Shown here in pieces: positions 16,832-22,966 of a stretch of DNA of 26,871 nucleotides. Under the pieces are notes generated by a model. It ran no database searches, was not told where the DNA came from, and was given only the letters and a program-made list of their open reading frames with translations. How positions within the stretch are numbered: the first letter of the stretch is position 1; every line of letters starts with the position of its first letter. The stretch covers positions 1-26,871 of the forward strand of contig NZ_JAYKGW010000240.1 in NCBI RefSeq assembly GCF_035285525.1, written 5' to 3'. Source of the DNA: Okeania sp. Lineage in GTDB: Bacteria; Cyanobacteriota; Cyanobacteriia; Cyanobacteriales; Microcoleaceae. Both the position numbers and the translations under genes were made by a program.

Positions 16832-18937
16832 ATGAACGTTAATACAAAAGTCGCAAAAAAAGCATTACTAATTGGTAAAGGACTACCCCCTTTTGAGTCT
16901 ATCAAAACAGAAGATGTAGTACCTGCAATGACAGAATTACTGACAGAATTAGAACCAGAATTAATCAATTTAGAAACAACAGTTAAACCAACTTGGAATG
17001 ACTTAGTAGAACCTTTACAAAAATTAGAAGATCGTTTAACTTGGAGTTGGGGAATAGTAGGACATTTGATGGGAGTAAAAAACAGTCCTGAACTCCGAAC
17101 AGCTTATAATGAAATACAACCCAAAGTGATAGAATTTATTAATAAATTAAGTCAAAGTAAACCCCTTTATCAAACCTTTAAAAACTTAAGGGATAGTGAT
17201 AGTTGGCAAAACTTAGATTCAGGGCAAAAACGCATAGTTGAAACTGCTATTAGAAATGCCGAACTTTCCGGAGTAGCTTTAGAAGGAGAAACACGAGAAC
17301 GCTTCAATGCCATTCAACTAGAACTAGCAGAACTTTCTACCAAATTTTCTAATAATGTTCTTGATGCCACCACAGCTTTTAGCCTCACATTAACTCAAAA
17401 AGAAGAAGTAGACGGTTTACCACCCAGTTTATTAAGTTTAGCAGCTCAAGCTGCCAAAGATGATGGCTCTGAAAATGCTACTCCCGAAAACGGACCTTGG
17501 CGCATCACTCTCGACTATCCTAGTTTTGTTCCCTTCATGCAGCATAGTCAAAAACGGGAGTTGCGAGAAAAACTCTATAAAGCTTTTGTTAGTCGTGCTT
17601 CTAGTGATGAATTAAATAATTATCCTTTAATTGAACGCATTCTGGAACTACGTCAACAAAAAACCGAAATTTTAGGCTTTAAGAGTTATGCAGAACTAAG
17701 TTTAGCCAGCAAAATGGCTCCCAGTGTGGCAGCAGTAGAAAAATTATTGGAAGAACTCCGGAGTGTTAGTTATGATGCTGCATACAAAGACTTAGAAGAC
17801 CTGAAAGCTTATGCTGCCAGCAAAAATGCACCAGAAGCAAATGACCTCAAACATTGGGATACCAGTTTTTGGTCAGAAAGACTACGGGAAGCAAAATTTT
17901 CCTTTACCGCAGAAGAGTTGCGACCATATTTCCCACTGCCACAAGTTCTAGATGGGTTATTTGCTCTAGTCAAACGAATATTTGGCATTAATATTACTGT
18001 TGCGGATGGGACAGCACCAGTTTGGCATGAAGATGTGCGTTATTTTCAAGTTAGTGATGAAACCAATACGCCCATTGCTTACTTTTATCTCGATCCTTAT
18101 AGTCGTCCCTCAGAAAAACGAGGTGGTGCTTGGATGAATGAGTGTGTAACTCGTACTAAAATTGTCGAGAATGGTGAAACTACTTTGCGTTTACCTGTAG
18201 CATATTTACAATGTAATCAAACACCACCTATAAATGATCGACCTAGTTTGATGACTTTTAGCGAGGTAGAAACTTTGTTCCATGAATTTGGGCATGGTTT
18301 ACAACACATGCTAACAAAGGTTGACTATGCAGGTGCTGCTGGTATTAATAATATTGAGTGGGATGCGGTAGAGTTACCGAGTCAGTTTATGGAAAATTGG
18401 TGTTATGATCGCTCCACTTTATTCGGAATGGCAAAACATTATGAAACCGGAGAGACTTTACCAGAACATTATTATCAGAAACTTTTAGCTGCCAGAAATT
18501 ATATGAGCGGTAGTGCCATGTTACGTCAGTTGCACTTTGCTCTGGTTGATATTGAACTACATCATCGTTATCAACCAGGTGGCAAAGAAACAGTAGTGGA
18601 TGTCCGGAAACGAATCGCTGAGACTACTACTGTTTTACAACCTTTGCCAGAAGATTCATTTTTGTGTGTGTTTGGGCATATTTTTTCTGGTAGTTATGCT
18701 GCTGGTTATTACAGTTACAAATGGGCAGAAGTATTGAGTGCTGATGCTTTTGCTGCTTTTGAAGAAGCTGGCTTGGAAAATGAAGAGGCGATCGCTACTT
18801 GTGGTAAGCGTTTTAGGGATACGGTTTTAGCATTGGGCGGGAGTTTGCATCCGATTGAGGTGTTTCAAACTTTCCGAGGTCGGGAACCAAATACTGAACC
18901 TTTATTACGACATAGTGGTTTGGTAGCTCCGGTTTAA
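16832..18937 (+). CDS. prlC: Oligopeptidase A (M3 family zinc metallopeptidase)
   Basis: 701 aa. It carries the HEFGH zinc motif (TLFHEFGHGLQHML), a downstream E (IEWDAVELPSQFMENW), and length and overall pattern typical of M3A PrlC/Dcp. Confidence 0.93.
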   Translation: MNVNTKVAKKALLIGKGLPPFESIKTEDVVPAMTELLTELEPELINLETTVKPTWNDLVEPLQKLEDRLTWSWGIVGHLMGVKNSPELRTAYNEIQPKVIEFINKLSQSKPLYQTFKNLRDSDSWQNLDSGQKRIVETAIRNAELSGVALEGETRERFNAIQLELAELSTKFSNNVLDATTAFSLTLTQKEEVDGLPPSLLSLAAQAAKDDGSENATPENGPWRITLDYPSFVPFMQHSQKRELREKLYKAFVSRASSDELNNYPLIERILELRQQKTEILGFKSYAELSLASKMAPSVAAVEKLLEELRSVSYDAAYKDLEDLKAYAASKNAPEANDLKHWDTSFWSERLREAKFSFTAEELRPYFPLPQVLDGLFALVKRIFGINITVADGTAPVWHEDVRYFQVSDETNTPIAYFYLDPYSRPSEKRGGAWMNECVTRTKIVENGETTLRLPVAYLQCNQTPPINDRPSLMTFSEVETLFHEFGHGLQHMLTKVDYAGAAGINNIEWDAVELPSQFMENWCYDRSTLFGMAKHYETGETLPEHYYQKLLAARNYMSGSAMLRQLHFALVDIELHHRYQPGGKETVVDVRKRIAETTTVLQPLPEDSFLCVFGHIFSGSYAAGYYSYKWAEVLSADAFAAFEEAGLENEEAIATCGKRFRDTVLALGGSLHPIEVFQTFRGREPNTEPLLRHSGLVAPV

Positions 18938-19172: not shown

Positions 19173-19385
19173 TTGATTCAGAAATACTCAAAAAAACTTC
19201 AAGGAACATCCATCCAAGAACGCATTCTTGTTATTGAAGCAGTTTTGCAAACAGTTAAAAACGATATGGGTCTAACTTCCTCACAACAGCTTTCCTCTGA
19301 AGAACAACCCCTGAAAGGAAAAGTGATTAATTATGACGCTCCTTATGAACCTATAGCCCTACAAGACTGGGAAACATTAAAATGA
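19173..19385 (+). CDS. Putative VapB-like antitoxin, possibly frameshifted at its 5' end
   Basis: 70-aa frame with a TTG start (IQERILVIEAVLQTVKND...PYEPIALQDWETLK). Its stop overlaps the start of the PIN-domain frame as ATGA. An upstream ATG at 19169 reads MIDSEILKK and would join this frame if the A7 run at 19190-19196 were one A shorter. Confidence 0.5.
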   Translation: MIQKYSKKLQGTSIQERILVIEAVLQTVKNDMGLTSSQQLSSEEQPLKGKVINYDAPYEPIALQDWETLK

Positions 19386-19781
19386 TTCTAGACACTCATA
19401 TCTGGATTTGATGGGTTGACGATAATCCTAAACTATCTTCCACAAACCGAGAAATCATTCAAGCAAATCAAACAACTGGTCTAGGAATTAGCATTATATC
19501 TTGTTGGAAAATTGCTAAAATTAGTCGAGAAAAAGAGACTAACTTTTGAGTCTTCTGTAGAAGAATGGCTAAAACTTGCTCTCAACTACCCTGGTATCCA
19601 ATTACTAGAATTAAACCTGCCGATTATTATAGAATCTACTCAATTATCTGGATTTCATGCAGAGCCAGCAGACCAGATTATTGTGGCAACAGCTAAAATT
19701 CACAGTTCGTTATTAGTCACTCAAGACGAAAAAATCTTGAATTTTTTCAAAGGAAATAATAAATTGACTCAAACCTACTAA
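19382..19781 (+). pseudogene. VapC-like PIN-domain toxin pseudogene (nonsense, +1 frameshift and active-site missense)
   Basis: The first frame reads MILDTHIWI*WVDDNPKLSSTNREIIQANQTTGLGISIISCWKIAK, with TGA at 19409-19411. After an extra A in the run at 19517-19520 the sequence continues in the ORF-track frame: LVEKKRLTFESSVEEWLKLALNYPGIQLLELNLPIIIESTQLSGFHAEPADQIIVATAKIHSSLLVTQDEKILNF. The total length of 400 nt is not a multiple of 3. PIN acidic residues are present (D4, PAD, TQD), but the expected CWE glutamate is K. Confidence 0.8.
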
Positions 19782-19834: not shown

Positions 19835-19907
19835 TAGGGACGTTCTATGGAAGGTCCCTAAAGAATCAGAAAATTAGCGATCGCTTATTCTGCATCAGTT
19901 TCCTACT
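19835..19907. repeat. Degenerate second copy of the palindrome + HIP1 + tail segment found at 18942-19020
   Basis: tagggacgttctatggaaggtccctaaagaatcagaaaattagcgatcgcttattctgcatcagtttcctac compares with tagggacgttccttccatggaaggaacgtccctataaaattgaaaaataagcgatcgcttatcctgtaacagtttcccc. It contains the stop codon of the CDPS-like gene. Confidence 0.7.
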
Positions 19908-20760
19908 TACTTTCTTTAGCATTCAATCTCTTCAGACCTAAACTTACCCAAGTTATTTGCTTGAGAGGTTCAGGTACTTCTGGGTGTAATCCCTCTGAAA
20001 TTTCTTCAAAGGTTTTAATTGACCCTGGATAAACGAAAACTAACCATTCTTGTTTAGCAATACAGGCAAACAAAGCAGACTCCTCAAGCAAATACCTTCT
20101 TGCTAGGTACTTTTGTCTGGGGTCTTGCACCTGTCCTGCTTCTATAGGTCTACCTCGGTTGAGATACTTCTCGGCAAAAGAATTTACTGTATTTTCAAAA
20201 GACTCATTTCTGCCGTAAAGACTTTGAAGTTCCTCGTAATAAATATCAAAGTCTAATTGCTTGCCAATTTCTGAAATCATCTTGAACTCAAATTGACAGC
20301 TTTCAGAATATTCTTGAAATAAAAGATAGTGGTCATCAATAAACTTTTCTCCAGTACGAATCGCCTTTAAGTAAGCCAGATCTTCTTCTATTCCTTCTCT
20401 CGCTTCAATTGTCAGTCGATGTAGACTATCACCAACTAATACTAGACAATTCTTAAAATTATCACTAATCCATCTGATGCAAGCTTCTACTCGCTCACTA
20501 TAAACAAAATTTTTGCTTCCTAAGCTAATTGCGAACACACACTTCTGATTGTTAAACAAAGAGCTACGCATACTCTGAGGAAATACTTTTGCTAAACTTG
20601 CCTTATATTTATGATCTTTGGTAAAATTGGAAGTACTTCTTGTTAGTTTTTCCTGTATCTTGATGTTTATGACTTTGCTGATTCGCGATTGGAGTAACTG
20701 CAAACGTTCAAGGGAAAGCTCACTCCAATCTATACTTTCTAGGTCTGTAGAACTACTCAT
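19903..20760 (-). CDS. tRNA-dependent cyclodipeptide synthase (CDPS) homolog, XYP-type signature
   Basis: 285 aa from the ATG at 20760; the ORF-track start at 20793 is a TTG. KCVFAISLGSKNFVYSERVEACIRWISDNFKNCLVLVGD parallels YvmC [38 protein letters not shown] and AlbC ALIGISAGNSYFS. RRYLLEESALF parallels AlbC NYVLAEAPLF (Y178/E182). LVFVYPGS parallels the Y202 position. Motif spacings (S79-Y223-Y244) are close to those of AlbC (S37-Y178-Y202). Reference sequences are recalled from memory. Confidence 0.75.
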   Translation of the reverse strand: MSSSTDLESIDWSELSLERLQLLQSRISKVINIKIQEKLTRSTSNFTKDHKYKASLAKVFPQSMRSSLFNNQKCVFAISLGSKNFVYSERVEACIRWISDNFKNCLVLVGDSLHRLTIEAREGIEEDLAYLKAIRTGEKFIDDHYLLFQEYSESCQFEFKMISEIGKQLDFDIYYEELQSLYGRNESFENTVNSFAEKYLNRGRPIEAGQVQDPRQKYLARRYLLEESALFACIAKQEWLVFVYPGSIKTFEEISEGLHPEVPEPLKQITWVSLGLKRLNAKESK

Positions 20761-20838
20761 TTTATTTTTTTGAACGTTTTTTATCCAAAACAAAGCAGAG
20801 GGTTTTTCAACCCCCCTATAAAAAAAATTCCACTAGAA

Positions 20839-21324
20839 TTAAACATTAGTTTCAAACAAAGCCAGGCGCAGTCGCTCACTTGCATCTTCCATTTCAGCTA
20901 ATGATTCAATACTAACAACCATACTACGCTCAATTCCTAAAACTTCTGCTGCTTTAGCCACTGCTGCTTTTTCTTTTTCTTGGTAAACTCCATCAGCACG
21001 ACTCATTTTAATTGCTTGGTATAACATAACTCGGCGAAAATTCATAGGAAAATCGTACTTGATACCATTCAATAGTTCTTCTATACTAGCATTTTTCCAA
21101 TCGAATTTACGAAGTGTTTCAATGTATTCTTCAGAATCTACAGTTAATAATTCTTGCTCATCAATATACCATTGAAATTCTGCTTCTGCTAGTTCGCCAT
21201 CCGCACCCGCGATCGCCATTAATGCACCACCATAACTCAATGCCACATCAAAATCAACTGGAGATGTGATGTTATATTTATTTTTAGCGTATTTAGTTGT
21301 CTGGAGACTTTTGCCGTTACTCAT
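20839..21324 (-). CDS. TerB-like (tellurite-resistance TerB fold) small helical protein, paralog 1
   Basis: 161 aa. It has two A-x-ADG-x-E repeats (GGALMAIAGADGELAEAEFQWY and LYQAIKMSRADGVYQEKEKAAVAKAAEVLGI), as in TerB (IAVASDGVSSEEK / IAVAKSDGNFDDDEKSAVREIARSLGF). It lies 78 nt upstream of the CDPS-like gene. Confidence 0.78.
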   Translation of the reverse strand: MSNGKSLQTTKYAKNKYNITSPVDFDVALSYGGALMAIAGADGELAEAEFQWYIDEQELLTVDSEEYIETLRKFDWKNASIEELLNGIKYDFPMNFRRVMLYQAIKMSRADGVYQEKEKAAVAKAAEVLGIERSMVVSIESLAEMEDASERLRLALFETNV

Positions 21325-21793: not shown

Positions 21794-21867
21794 ATAAAAT
21801 CTTACAACTTATTGAGGACAGAGGAGCTTTTTTGAAACCCCTCTATAAAAAAAAGTTGTCTCCAGAA

Positions 21868-22353
21868 TTAAACATCAATTTCAAATAAAGTAAGTCGTAG
21901 TTGCTCACTCTCTTCTTCCTTTTTTGCCAATGACTCAAGCTTAATCAGCATACTATTCTCAAGACCCAAAAGTTCTGATGCTCTAGCCACTGCTATTTTT
22001 TCTTGTCCTTGATAATCTCCATCAGCGCGACTCATTTTAATTGCTTGGTACAACATAACTCGGCGAAAATTCATAGGAAAATCGTACTTTATCCCCCTTA
22101 ATAGCTCTCCTATGTCAGCATTTTGCCAATCAAATTTACGGAGCGCTTCAATGTACTCTTCATACTCAACAAACAAAATTTCTTGTTCGTCAATATACCA
22201 TTGAAATTCTCTTTCTGTTAACTCACCATCCGCACCAGCGATCGCCATCAATGCACCACCATAATTTACTGCCACATCAAAATCAATTGGTGCATTAAGG
22301 TTATACCTTTTTTGGGCATATTTAGTTGGATGGAGACTTTTCCCCCTACTCAT
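21868..22353 (-). CDS. TerB-like small helical protein, paralog 2
   Basis: 161 aa. It is collinear with paralog 1 with no gaps and 117/161 identical residues by my hand alignment. It has the same two ADG motifs. Confidence 0.78.
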   Translation of the reverse strand: MSRGKSLHPTKYAQKRYNLNAPIDFDVAVNYGGALMAIAGADGELTEREFQWYIDEQEILFVEYEEYIEALRKFDWQNADIGELLRGIKYDFPMNFRRVMLYQAIKMSRADGDYQGQEKIAVARASELLGLENSMLIKLESLAKKEEESEQLRLTLFEIDV

Positions 22354-22666: not shown

Positions 22667-22966
22667 TTATTCATCAAATTTACACAAATATTTTTTATCT
22701 TTATCATACTCTACGTCTGGCGTCCCCTCAACCAACCCACAATATTTAGCAAAATGATACTCCAACCAAAACCACTTTTCTTGATTTATTCCATTATCTA
22801 CTACTACTTTCCTTCCATCTATTCTACCAATCACTCCAACCCGAGCCAAATTATTCTTGAACAACTCCATAGGAGTCTTTTTTGCTGCTGCTACCGCTGG
22901 AGTCTGAACCAACCACAAACACAACAACAGACATAGAACCAAGAAACATTTTACACTATTCCACAT
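22667..22966 (-). CDS. Small secreted hypothetical protein (signal peptide, three Cys in the mature part)
   Basis: 99 aa. The N-terminus MWNSVKCFLVLCLLLCLWLVQTPAVAAAKK looks like a Sec signal peptide with an AVA-A cleavage site. I recognise no family. Confidence 0.55.
   Translation of the reverse strand: MWNSVKCFLVLCLLLCLWLVQTPAVAAAKKTPMELFKNNLARVGVIGRIDGRKVVVDNGINQEKWFWLEYHFAKYCGLVEGTPDVEYDKDKKYLCKFDE

What the first reader, a model, noticed from the sequence alone, without database searches (positions are those of the whole stretch)
19903..20760. The CDPS-like protein retains all catalytic positions, has an XYP-type signature, and carries a ~45-aa N-terminal extension
Numbering from the ATG at 20760, the matches to AlbC are as follows. 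Ser79 in AISLGS aligns with the acyl-enzyme Ser37 (GISAGN). Ser82 occupies the X40 position. Tyr223 and Glu227 in RRYLLEE match Y178/E182 (NYVLAE). Tyr244-Pro245 in FVYPGS match positions 202/203. This gives the X-Y-P pattern of the XYP subfamily rather than N-Y-H. The spacings Ser-to-Tyr (144 vs 141 residues) and Tyr-to-Tyr (21 vs 24) are close to AlbC. The first ~45 residues (MSSSTDLESIDWSELSLERLQLLQSRISKVINIKIQEKL...) have no counterpart in AlbC or YvmC as I remember them, and they look helical. CDPSs are mostly characterised from actinobacteria, firmicutes and proteobacteria, so an intact cyanobacterial one with unknown product specificity is worth characterising.
Basis: partly seen in the sequence, partly recalled or inferred. 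Interest (0 to 1): 0.55.

Follow-up and report, generated by a model that had tools for sequence, protein, structure and literature searches.

The report
Cyanobacterial cyclodipeptide synthase with TerB partner
The gene is an intact tRNA-dependent cyclodipeptide synthase of a known cyanobacterial group (a Moorea relative, 62% identical, makes cyclo(Ala-Pro)), so the enzyme is ordinary; the part I could not find reported is that it almost always sits next to a small TerB-like protein of unknown function.

Summary
ORF 19903-20760(-) encodes a 285-aa XYP-type cyclodipeptide synthase (CDPS). Ser79, Tyr223, Glu227, Tyr244 and Pro245 sit at AlbC positions 37, 178, 182, 202 and 203, and Ser82 is at X40. 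It passes the TIGR04539 cut-off. Its model superposes on BcmA (9J61) at TM 0.95. The roughly 49-aa N-terminal extension is real: one helix (residues 17-45), as conserved as the core across about 65 cyanobacterial homologues, and found in no other protein family.

The enzyme is not new. NCBI already annotates this exact protein in Okeania sp. A clade member, Moorea producens CDPS 18 (62% identical, same extension), was expressed in 2015 and makes cyclo(Ala-Pro). The P2 pocket (FKYRGIK) nearly matches CDPS 18 (FTYRGIK), but 5 of 8 P1 residues differ. My weak prediction is therefore cyclo(Xaa-Pro).

The unreported part is the context. In 34 of 39 cyanobacterial loci a 161-aa TerB-fold gene lies directly beside the CDPS on the same strand. 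The window has two copies. No tailoring enzyme is conserved nearby. The TerB role is unknown.

Verdict: a new member of a known kind, of modest interest.

The parts
19903..20760 (-). CDPS gene: 285 codons plus stop, XYP subfamily, CDPS-18 clade.
   Evidence: ORF. TIGR04539 scores 77 bits, above its cut-off of 45. The best solved relative is BcmA 9J61 at E=6e-39. The AF2 model has pLDDT 88, and Foldseek gives 9J61 at TM 0.95 and rmsd 1.6 A, with all top 50 hits being CDPSs. The identical protein is in NCBI as an Okeania sp. CDPS.
20614..20760 (-). Clade-specific N-terminal extension (residues 1-49): a conserved amphipathic helix at 17-45 followed by a variable linker at 40-49.
   Evidence: W12, L17, L20, S25 and K34 are at least 90% conserved. 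Residues 11-39 are as conserved as the core (0.715 vs 0.73), while the linker is at 0.37. The helix has pLDDT 83-86 over residues 11-30. A profile search of 1.84 billion representatives finds it only in CDPSs or CDPS fragments.
20524..20526 (-). Ser79 codon, the predicted acyl-enzyme nucleophile (AlbC S37, BcmA S43).
   Evidence: Ser is conserved in 66 of 68 homologues; two have Cys.
20515..20517 (-). Ser82 codon, the X position of the X-Y-P signature (AlbC N40).
   Evidence: In the clade the X residue is S in 54, N in 6, G in 4 and T in 2 of 68 (the SSYEYP count; the two Cys79 variants also have S here).
20080..20094 (-). Tyr223...Glu227 (RRYLLEE), the catalytic Tyr and Glu (AlbC Y178 and E182).
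   Evidence: Invariant in 68 homologues. Aligned to BcmA Y185 and E189.
20026..20031 (-). Tyr244-Pro245, the cyclisation Tyr and the Pro that defines the XYP subfamily (AlbC Y202 and H203).
   Evidence: Invariant in 68 homologues. Aligned to BcmA Y206 and P207.
20797..20816 (-). G+C-rich hairpin followed by a T-rich tail, between the TerB-like stop codon and the CDPS start codon. It resembles a terminator or attenuator.
   Evidence: Terminator-like scan hit. A hairpin occurs at the same place after the TerB stop in most other loci and after the second TerB copy in the window. No covariation test succeeded.
20839..21324 (-). TerB-like gene 1 (161 aa), directly upstream of the CDPS on the same strand.
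   Evidence: Pfam TerB scores 35 bits, above its gathering threshold of 24.4. PDB 2OU3 hits at E=1e-7. The AF2 model has pLDDT 91 and Foldseek gives 2OU3 at TM 0.72. A homologue is adjacent to the CDPS in 34 of 39 cyanobacterial loci.
21868..22353 (-). TerB-like gene 2 (161 aa), a paralogue 73% identical to gene 1, followed by a similar 3' hairpin at about 21817-21844.
   Evidence: TerB-TerB-CDPS arrays also occur in L016 and L032.

Best explanation
The gene encodes a functional XYP-subfamily cyclodipeptide synthase of the cyanobacterial clade typified by Moorea producens CDPS 18. The mechanism is inferred from the family. The aminoacyl group of a first aminoacyl-tRNA enters pocket P1 and is transferred to Ser79. 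The aminoacyl group of a second aminoacyl-tRNA, held in P2, forms a dipeptidyl-enzyme with help from Tyr223 and Glu227. Tyr244 then assists intramolecular cyclisation and release of a 2,5-diketopiperazine. P2 (FKYRGIK) is essentially the clade-wide F.YRGIK motif of the two known cyclo(Ala-Pro) synthases, whereas P1 (VALGILFF) differs at 5 of 8 positions from CDPS 18. The most likely product is therefore cyclo(L-Xaa-L-Pro), with Xaa a small or medium aliphatic residue; this is a low-confidence inference. No tailoring genes are nearby, so the product is probably left unmodified. The N-terminal helix is a conserved, clade-specific appendage attached by a flexible linker just upstream of strand beta2, which binds the tRNA acceptor stem in XYP enzymes. 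I infer that it is an auxiliary tRNA-contacting or oligomerisation element. The CDPS forms a conserved two-gene module with a TerB-fold protein whose role is unknown; a regulator, a product-binding protein or a protective factor are all possible.
For: Family membership rests on TIGR04539 at 77 bits against a cut-off of 45, PDB hits that are all CDPSs with BcmA best at E=6e-39, and an AF2 model at pLDDT 88 that superposes on 9J61 at TM 0.95 and rmsd 1.6 A, with the next 50 hits also CDPSs. Catalytic residues: Y223, E227, Y244, P245 and G246 are invariant, and S79 is conserved in 66 of 68 homologues. A characterised clade member exists: P0019, which corresponds to L010 of M. producens 3L, has exactly the curated motifs of CDPS 18 (FILCAVFF/FTYRGIK), which gave cAP as 100% of product. 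The expressed construct began MASSHRDEETIIENFDWNQLSLEQLKLLQ, so it included the extension. On pockets, P2 is constant across the clade while P1 varies, even between paralogues in one locus. Algicola CDPS 89, the other cAP synthase, has P2 FFYRGID. For context, a TerB-like gene is adjacent in 34 of 39 cyanobacterial loci spanning at least 12 genera, and no other gene family is shared by more than 9 loci. The Trichodesmium and Moorena loci show the same arrangement. The window otherwise holds housekeeping genes. For the extension: its conservation equals that of the core, it is found in no other family, and in Nbra-CDPS the tRNA acceptor stem contacts N-terminal beta2 and C-terminal beta7 (PMC13062777).
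Against: No activity data exist for this protein. Five of 8 P1 residues differ from the only characterised clade member, so the first substrate cannot be read off. The assignment of Pro to P2 rests on two enzymes only. Pfam PF16715 scores 26.4 bits, just under its gathering threshold of 27. Many cyanobacterial XYP enzymes were inactive in E. coli. The proposed tRNA-contact role of the helix is pure inference: I could not inspect model coordinates, and a subclade lacks the helix yet looks intact (L028, L035). The TerB link is guilt by association. CDPS 18 works in E. coli without TerB. L011 and L027 have intact CDPSs with no TerB within 10 kb. Some TerB-like genes sit beside other genes (L052, L053, L055).
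Confidence: 0.9

Rival explanations
1. The protein is a BcmA-type cyclo(Leu-Ile)/cyclo(Leu-Val) synthase, the first step of a bicyclomycin-like pathway, because BcmA is its closest solved relative.
For: 9J61 (SsBcmA) is the best sequence and structure match. P1 is hydrophobic and shares L108, G110 and F231 with BcmA L71, G73 and F193.
Against: Identity to BcmA is only 33%, against 62% to the cAP synthase CDPS 18. The BcmA specificity determinants F210 and S211 are I248 and K249 here, and P1 differs at 5 of 8 positions. True BcmA-like CDPSs with P1 FGLGCIFM do exist in cyanobacteria, as separate genes in L045 and L030. No 2OG-dioxygenase or P450 genes occur in the window.
Confidence: 0.07
2. 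The CDPS and the TerB-like protein act as one functional unit. The TerB-fold protein binds the CDPS or its diketopiperazine product and couples production to a stress or metal signal, or protects the producer. The N-terminal helix is the docking or regulatory element.
For: The two genes are adjacent on the same strand in 34 of 39 loci across Oscillatoriales-type and Nostocales-type genera. The pair duplicates as a unit (L012, L026, L028, L030). The TerB-like protein is more conserved (60-90% identity) than the CDPS (46-70%). The same TerB subfamily also flanks a BcmA-like CDPS plus P450 (L045) and an NRPS (L050). One MAG encodes a TerB-linker-CDPS fusion ORF (L030). Sister-group CDPSs outside cyanobacteria carry a fused cNMP-binding regulatory domain instead.
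Against: CDPSs lacking the N-terminal helix still have TerB neighbours, so the helix is not the coupling element. CDPS 18 is active alone in E. coli. Only one fusion was found, and none in 5.8 billion proteins. A hairpin resembling a terminator separates the two genes. TerB-like genes also occur without a CDPS. The function of the TerB domain is itself unknown.
Confidence: 0.35
3. The gene is a decaying or catalytically silent relic, or a non-catalytic aa-tRNA-binding protein, rather than an active synthase.
For: Many cyanobacterial XYP CDPSs gave no product in E. coli. Frameshifted or chimeric copies exist in other genomes (L036, L037, L038). There is no tailoring cluster.
Against: The ORF is intact, all catalytic and pocket positions are conserved, the fold prediction is confident, and purifying selection is evident across about 65 homologues. 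The inactive cyanobacterial example, CDPS 99, belongs to another clade with different pockets.
Confidence: 0.05

Closest known systems
CDPS 18 of Moorea (Moorena) producens 3L, WP_008190827 / LYNGBM3L_69800 (Jacques et al. 2015 Nat Chem Biol 11:721, as tabulated in Gondry et al. 2018, PMC5816076)
   Same: It belongs to the same clade and is 62% identical. It has the same N-terminal extension, the same S-Y-P signature and catalytic tetrad, and a P2 motif of FTYRGIK against FKYRGIK here. It also has a TerB-like gene directly upstream (L010).
   Different: P1 is FILCAVFF against VALGILFF here, so 5 of 8 positions differ and the first amino acid may not be Ala. The host genus differs (Okeania).
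BcmA, the cyclo(Ile-Leu) synthase of bicyclomycin biosynthesis (SsBcmA, PDB 9J61; PMC11580168)
   Same: [quoted passage not shown]
   Different: BcmA has no N-terminal helix. Its X residue is Asn46, against Ser82 here. Its P1 and P2 are FGLGCIFM and FDYKGFS. It is embedded in a cluster of oxygenases, whereas no tailoring genes occur here.
AlbC (albonoursin CDPS), the reference enzyme for NYH-subfamily numbering
   Same: It has the same Rossmann-like, class-Ic aaRS-like fold and the same ping-pong catalytic residues (S37, Y178, E182, Y202).
   Different: AlbC is NYH (N40, H203), whereas this protein is S82/P245. The query is 42 aa longer before the catalytic Ser. In NYH enzymes the first tRNA substrate binds at the positive helix alpha4, whereas in XYP enzymes the stem binds at beta2 and beta7.
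COG3793 TerB-family protein Npun_F6341 of Nostoc punctiforme (PDB 2OU3), for the neighbouring gene
   Same: It is 161 aa, all-helical and has the TerB fold, with TM 0.72 and E=1e-7. It shares the two ADG-x5-E repeats.
   Different: Identity is only about 24-30%. No link to a CDPS is known for 2OU3. The CDPS-linked subfamily is restricted to filamentous, mostly marine cyanobacteria.

Membership tests
Cyclodipeptide synthase (CDPS; TIGR04539 / PF16715) | A significant match to the family profile above the curated cut-off. | tested here: met
   TIGR04539 scores 77.1 bits against a cut-off of 45, E=1.4e-21, covering profile positions 6-213 of 220. Pfam PF16715 scores 26.4 bits, marginally below its gathering threshold of 27.
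Cyclodipeptide synthase (CDPS; TIGR04539 / PF16715) | A Rossmann-like fold resembling the class-Ic aaRS catalytic domain. | tested here: met
   The AF2 model has pLDDT 88. Foldseek gives 9J61 at TM 0.95 and rmsd 1.6 A, and the top 50 PDB hits are all CDPSs. Similarity to TyrRS or TrpRS themselves was not examined.
Cyclodipeptide synthase (CDPS; TIGR04539 / PF16715) | The catalytic tetrad Ser37, Tyr178, Glu182 and Tyr202 (AlbC numbering). | tested here: met
   S79, Y223, E227 and Y244 occupy these positions, with the mapping validated against curated pocket positions. They are invariant or nearly invariant in 68 homologues.
Cyclodipeptide synthase (CDPS; TIGR04539 / PF16715) | aa-tRNA-dependent formation of a cyclodipeptide. 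| not testable with these tools
   This is supported only by analogy to the 62%-identical CDPS 18, which gave cAP in E. coli.
XYP subfamily of CDPSs | Pro at AlbC position 203 after the cyclisation Tyr, and a non-conserved residue at position 40 instead of Asn. | tested here: met
   Y244-P245 are invariant. Position 82 is Ser here and S, N, G or T across the clade. The nearest structures are all XYP enzymes: 9J61, 5OCD and 5MLQ.
cAP-synthesising group (CDPS 18 / CDPS 89) | P1 and P2 pocket motifs matching those of characterised members. | tested here: inconclusive
   P2 FKYRGIK matches FTYRGIK at 6 of 7 positions. P1 VALGILFF matches FILCAVFF at only 3 of 8.
cLI/cLL XYP group (BcmA-like) | P1 FGLGCIFM-type and P2 F.Y[KR]GFS-type motifs. 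| tested here: not met
   P1 matches at 3 of 8 positions. The P2 specificity residues F210 and S211 are replaced by I248 and K249.
TerB family (PF05099), for the neighbouring genes | A profile match above the gathering threshold and the helical TerB fold with duplicated ADG...E motifs. | tested here: met
   The two genes score 35.1 and 33.1 bits against a gathering threshold of 24.4. 2OU3 hits at E=1e-7 and TM 0.72. D42, G43 and E49 and D111 and E118 are invariant. Tellurite resistance itself was not tested and is not implied.

The most novel reading that the evidence does not exclude
In filamentous cyanobacteria the core of the 'CDPS cluster' may be CDPS plus a dedicated TerB-fold partner rather than CDPS plus tailoring enzymes. 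On this reading the pair is a conserved two-gene module that duplicates as a unit and diversifies only in the P1 pocket. The TerB-like protein would sense a stress or metal signal, or bind the diketopiperazine, to control or buffer production of an untailored cyclo(Xaa-Pro) signal. The clade-specific N-terminal helix would be an appended tRNA-binding or regulatory element. This would give the enigmatic TerB domain its first defined small-molecule or enzyme partner.
Probability: 0.3. Interest if true: 0.6.

Novelty: new member of a known kind. Interest (0 to 1): 0.35.

Why it matters
As an enzyme it adds one more member, with a new P1 pocket, to a CDPS clade that has only one characterised representative. 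That is useful for specificity-prediction models, which remain weakest for XYP enzymes: 73% are predictable, against 91% for NYH (PMC5816076).

The wider value lies in the context. The TerB-like/CDPS pairing across many marine bloom- and mat-forming cyanobacteria (Okeania, Trichodesmium, Moorena, Roseofilum, Richelia, Calothrix) suggests these organisms make simple, untailored diketopiperazines under the control or protection of a TerB-fold protein. I found no report of this pairing in the searchable literature. Diketopiperazines are known signalling and allelopathic molecules. The TerB domain has no established molecular function. A genetically simple two-gene system could therefore make both questions testable by experiment.

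Tried and rejected
1. A degraded second CDPS between the two TerB paralogues: tblastn with 100 clade CDPSs found nothing outside 19.9-20.8 kb.

2. The N-terminal helix as the element that couples the CDPS to TerB: rejected, because short-form CDPSs without the helix (L028, L030, L035) are also TerB-adjacent.

3. Homology between the N-extension and a TerB segment (FDW..S.EEL): hhalign gave probability 7% and E=0.005 over 14 columns, too weak to use.

4. Further natural TerB-CDPS fusions: a search with the L030 fusion ORF found none, with no hit covering more than 66% of the query. L037 is a truncated chimera.

5. The N-extension occurring in other protein families: a profile search of 1.84 billion representatives returned only CDPSs or CDPS fragments and one repetitive 924-aa protein.

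6. Anti-phage defence annotation: PADLOC gave no significant hit for the CDPS or the TerB-like proteins.

7. Conserved tailoring enzymes: clustering of all ORFs in 44 loci found no other family in more than 9 loci.

8. Covariation support for the intergenic hairpin: RNAalifold on 12 sequences did not recover it, because two hairpin types are mixed in the alignment. Rfam gave no hits in the window and ARAGORN found no tRNA genes.

9. Prior literature linking TerB and CDPSs: two full-text searches and the global CDPS neighbourhood survey (PMC5767969) gave nothing.

10. Modelling a TerB-CDPS complex: not possible, because concatenated or fusion sequences cannot be submitted and model coordinates are not exposed.
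Full report
THE OBSERVATION

The minus-strand ORF 19903-20760 is real and encodes 285 aa from the ATG at 20760. An upstream in-frame TTG at 20793 would add 11 residues, but about 65 homologues start with the same MSS..D.E..IENFDW motif, so the ATG is the start. The remembered AlbC strings (GISAGN, NYVLAE, LCYH) are present in AlbC and its orthologue in the Gondry 2018 supplement.

I verified the equivalence to AlbC numbering independently. Using the HMMER alignment to BcmA and a 68-sequence family alignment (A1), I extracted the eight P1 and seven P2 positions. For homologue P0019 they reproduce exactly the curated motifs FILCAVFF/FTYRGIK that Gondry et al. list for CDPS 18 in AlbC numbering. 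That fixes query 79, 82, 223, 227, 244 and 245 to AlbC 37, 40, 178, 182, 202 and 203.

WHAT IT IS

- The protein passes NCBIfam TIGR04539 (tRNA-dependent cyclodipeptide synthase) at 77 bits against a cut-off of 45.
- Pfam PF16715 scores 26.4 bits, just below its threshold of 27.
- All 13 PDB sequence hits are CDPSs. The best is SsBcmA (9J61), the XYP-type cyclo(Ile-Leu)/cyclo(Val-Leu) synthase of bicyclomycin biosynthesis, at E=6e-39 and 33% identity.
- An AlphaFold2 model built on A1 has mean pLDDT 88 and pTM 0.78.
- Foldseek places the model on 9J61 with TM 0.95 and rmsd 1.6 A, followed by the XYP enzymes 5OCD and Nbra-CDPS and then NYH enzymes. All 50 listed hits are CDPSs.
- Across 68 homologues Y223, E227, Y244, P245 and G246 are invariant, and S79 is conserved in 66.

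The signature is S-Y-P, so the enzyme belongs to the XYP subfamily.

HOW NEW IT IS

The identical protein is already in NCBI as 'tRNA-dependent cyclodipeptide synthase [Okeania sp.]' on a 26,871-bp contig, which is this window. About 100 clusters of homologues at 45-70% identity come from filamentous, mostly marine cyanobacteria: Okeania, Dapis, Moorena, Symploca, Caldora, Roseofilum, Calothrix, Rivularia, Richelia, Scytonema, Coleofasciculus and Trichodesmium.

One member has been characterised. CDPS 18 of Moorea producens 3L (WP_008190827) is 62% identical and produced cyclo(Ala-Pro) as 100% of product in E. coli (Jacques et al. 2015, as tabulated in PMC5816076). The expressed construct began MASSHRDEETIIENFDWNQLSLEQLKLLQ, so it contained the N-terminal extension. 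antiSMASH surveys also already list a CDPS cluster in Roseofilum.

PRODUCT PREDICTION

The query pockets are P1 VALGILFF and P2 FKYRGIK. P2 is nearly constant across the clade as F.YRGIK. It resembles the P2 of the only other cyclo(Ala-Pro) synthase, Algicola CDPS 89 (FFYRGID). P1 is highly variable, even between paralogues in one locus: VGLAALNL vs VALGALFF in L012, and VLLSALLL vs IGLTTINA in L026.

I infer that P2 holds Pro and P1 sets a variable first residue, which gives cyclo(Xaa-Pro). With 5 of 8 P1 residues different from CDPS 18, Xaa cannot be named. A BcmA-like specificity is unlikely. The BcmA determinants F210 and S211 are I248 and K249 here. Genuine BcmA-like CDPSs with P1 FGLGCIFM exist separately in cyanobacteria, in L045 and L030.

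THE N-TERMINAL EXTENSION

Profile and structure matches begin at residues 50-72. The model shows one helix at 17-45 (pLDDT 83-86 over residues 11-30), a low-confidence linker at 40-48, and then strand 52-60. Residues 11-39 are as conserved as the catalytic core: mean top-residue frequency is 0.715 against 0.73, with W12, L17, L20, S25 and K34 at 90% or more. The linker is variable at 0.37.

A profile of the extension searched against 1.84 billion representative proteins found only CDPSs or CDPS fragments, so it is a clade-specific invention. A subclade lacks it (L028, L035 and two L030 copies), so it is not required for the fold.

In the XYP enzyme Nbra-CDPS the tRNA acceptor stem is bound by the N-terminal strand beta2 and the C-terminal strand beta7 (PMC13062777). 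The extension here is tethered immediately upstream of the equivalent strand and carries conserved Lys21, Lys29 and Lys34. My best inference is an auxiliary tRNA contact. Oligomerisation is the alternative. Neither is shown.

CONTEXT

The window contains no P450, cyclodipeptide oxidase, 2OG oxygenase, methyltransferase or prenyltransferase gene. The other genes are PGK, Usp, a GTPase, XisH/XisI, Mrp antiporter subunits, an FG-GAP protein, an M3 oligopeptidase and SecA.

Directly upstream on the same strand lie two 161-aa paralogues, 73% identical, that pass Pfam TerB. They match the COG3793 structure 2OU3 at E=1e-7. The AF2 model has pLDDT 91 and TM 0.72 to 2OU3. They keep two invariant ADG-x5-E repeats.

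In 44 genomic loci encoding relatives of the CDPS, 39 are cyanobacterial. In 34 of these a TerB-like gene at 55-90% identity is directly adjacent on the same strand, usually upstream. Of the remaining five:
- two carry frameshifted CDPS pseudogenes (L036, L038);
- one is cut at the contig end (L024);
- two are genuine exceptions (L011, L027).

No other gene family recurs in more than 9 loci. The pair is duplicated as a unit in L012, L026, L028 and L030. The locus of the characterised CDPS 18 also has the TerB-like gene (L010).

Starting from the TerB side, the homologues (184 clusters) are confined to the same cyanobacteria. I sampled eight contexts, chosen mainly from contigs that did not obviously carry a CDPS:
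- TerB followed by a CDPS in Moorena and Trichodesmium. The Trichodesmium locus also has the M3 peptidase, as in the window.
- A TerB-like gene beside a P450 plus a BcmA-like CDPS (L045).
- A TerB-like gene beside an NRPS (L050).
- A TerB-like gene beside an N-extension remnant and an inverted, divergent CDPS (L054).
- Three contexts without a CDPS (L052, L053, L055).

One MAG encodes a single TerB-linker-CDPS ORF (L030 9482-10846). No further fusion exists among 5.8 billion proteins, so this is weak evidence. A hairpin, with a terminator-like T-rich tail in the window copy, follows the TerB stop codon in the window (20797-20816). A hairpin follows the second paralogue and the TerB stop in most other loci as well. 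The two genes may therefore be expressed at different levels.

I found no paper linking TerB to CDPSs. The function of the TerB domain is itself regarded as unknown.

VERDICT

The finding is correct, and the enzyme is an ordinary, already-annotated member of a known family with a characterised close relative. I classify it as a new member of a known kind. What remains open is the first-substrate specificity, the role of the conserved N-terminal helix, and the apparently unreported TerB-like/CDPS two-gene module. The module is the most novel reading the evidence allows: probability about 0.3 that it is a true functional partnership of the kind described. Overall interest is 0.35.

Noticed in passing
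window 20839-21324 and 21868-22353 (-); loci L001-L042: Two TerB-like paralogues lie upstream of the CDPS. A TerB-like gene is adjacent to the CDPS in 34 of 39 cyanobacterial loci, is more conserved than the CDPS, and duplicates together with it. I found no report of this pairing in the searchable literature.
   Followed up: yes
P0008 and P0018 (homologues): Two clade members (65% and 62% identical to the query) carry Cys instead of the acyl-enzyme Ser (GICLGSKNF, GVCLGSKNF). They would use a thioester rather than an ester intermediate. Each cluster has several member sequences, so sequencing error is unlikely.
   Followed up: no
L039 9869-11161, L041 9878-11302; P0101, P0103, P0229-P0232: The non-cyanobacterial sister group (Hoeflea, Stappiaceae, Alteromonadaceae) has the CDPS fused to a C-terminal cyclic-nucleotide-binding domain (PF00027) and has no TerB neighbour. 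This suggests cNMP-regulated cyclodipeptide synthesis.
   Followed up: partly
L045 6001-9101 (Okeania sp. SIO3I5); L030 8494-9192: Cyanobacteria also encode BcmA-like CDPSs (P1 FGLGCIFM, identical to SsBcmA). In L045 this gene sits next to a P450 and a 166-aa TerB-like gene, which looks like a possible cyclo(Leu-Ile)-derived pathway.
   Followed up: partly
L030 9482-10846 (Prochloraceae MAG PL24a_bin.78): A single 454-aa ORF joins a TerB-like domain, a 25-aa acidic linker and a full-length CDPS with its N-terminal helix. It is the only such fusion found and could be a sequencing artefact.
   Followed up: partly
window 20797-20816 and about 21817-21844 (-); the same position in L001-L029: A conserved sequence and hairpin follow the TerB stop codon (consensus TTCTGGTTGA..TTTTTATAGAGGATTTTGAT...ATCAAAATCCTCT; shortened to GGGGGGTTGAAAAACCCTCT plus a T-run in the window). 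It may be a partial terminator or an RNA-stability element between the TerB-like gene and the CDPS.
   Followed up: partly
window 20700-20740 (CDPS residues 7-20) vs 21073-21141 (TerB-like residues 62-84): The CDPS N-extension and the TerB-like protein share a short motif (ENFDWNQLSLEQL vs RKFDWKNASIEEL). hhalign gives E=0.005 and probability 7%. This is probably chance but remains unexplained.
   Followed up: partly
window 19173-19385 (+) and 19512-19781 (+): A small ORF and a truncated PIN-domain-like ORF (Pfam PIN E=0.001, C-terminal half only) lie just downstream of the CDPS. They are probably a decayed toxin-antitoxin pair.
   Followed up: no
window 16832-18937 (+); L001, L004-L007, L048, L049: An M3 oligopeptidase (701 aa) is convergent with the CDPS. 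The arrangement is conserved in the closest relatives (5 loci from the genome scan) and in two Trichodesmium contigs. This is probably plain synteny, although a peptidase beside a dipeptide-forming enzyme is worth noting.
   Followed up: no
window 22667-22966 (-): A 99-aa ORF with a signal-peptide-like N-terminus lies upstream of the TerB pair. It has no Pfam, NCBIfam or PADLOC hit and is not conserved in the other loci.
   Followed up: no
L054 4546-5871 (Moorena producens): After the TerB-like gene, only the N-extension part of the long CDPS remains (54% identity over residues 1-60). It is followed by a divergent CDPS (38% identity) on the opposite strand, which points to local rearrangement or replacement of the synthase.
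   Followed up: no
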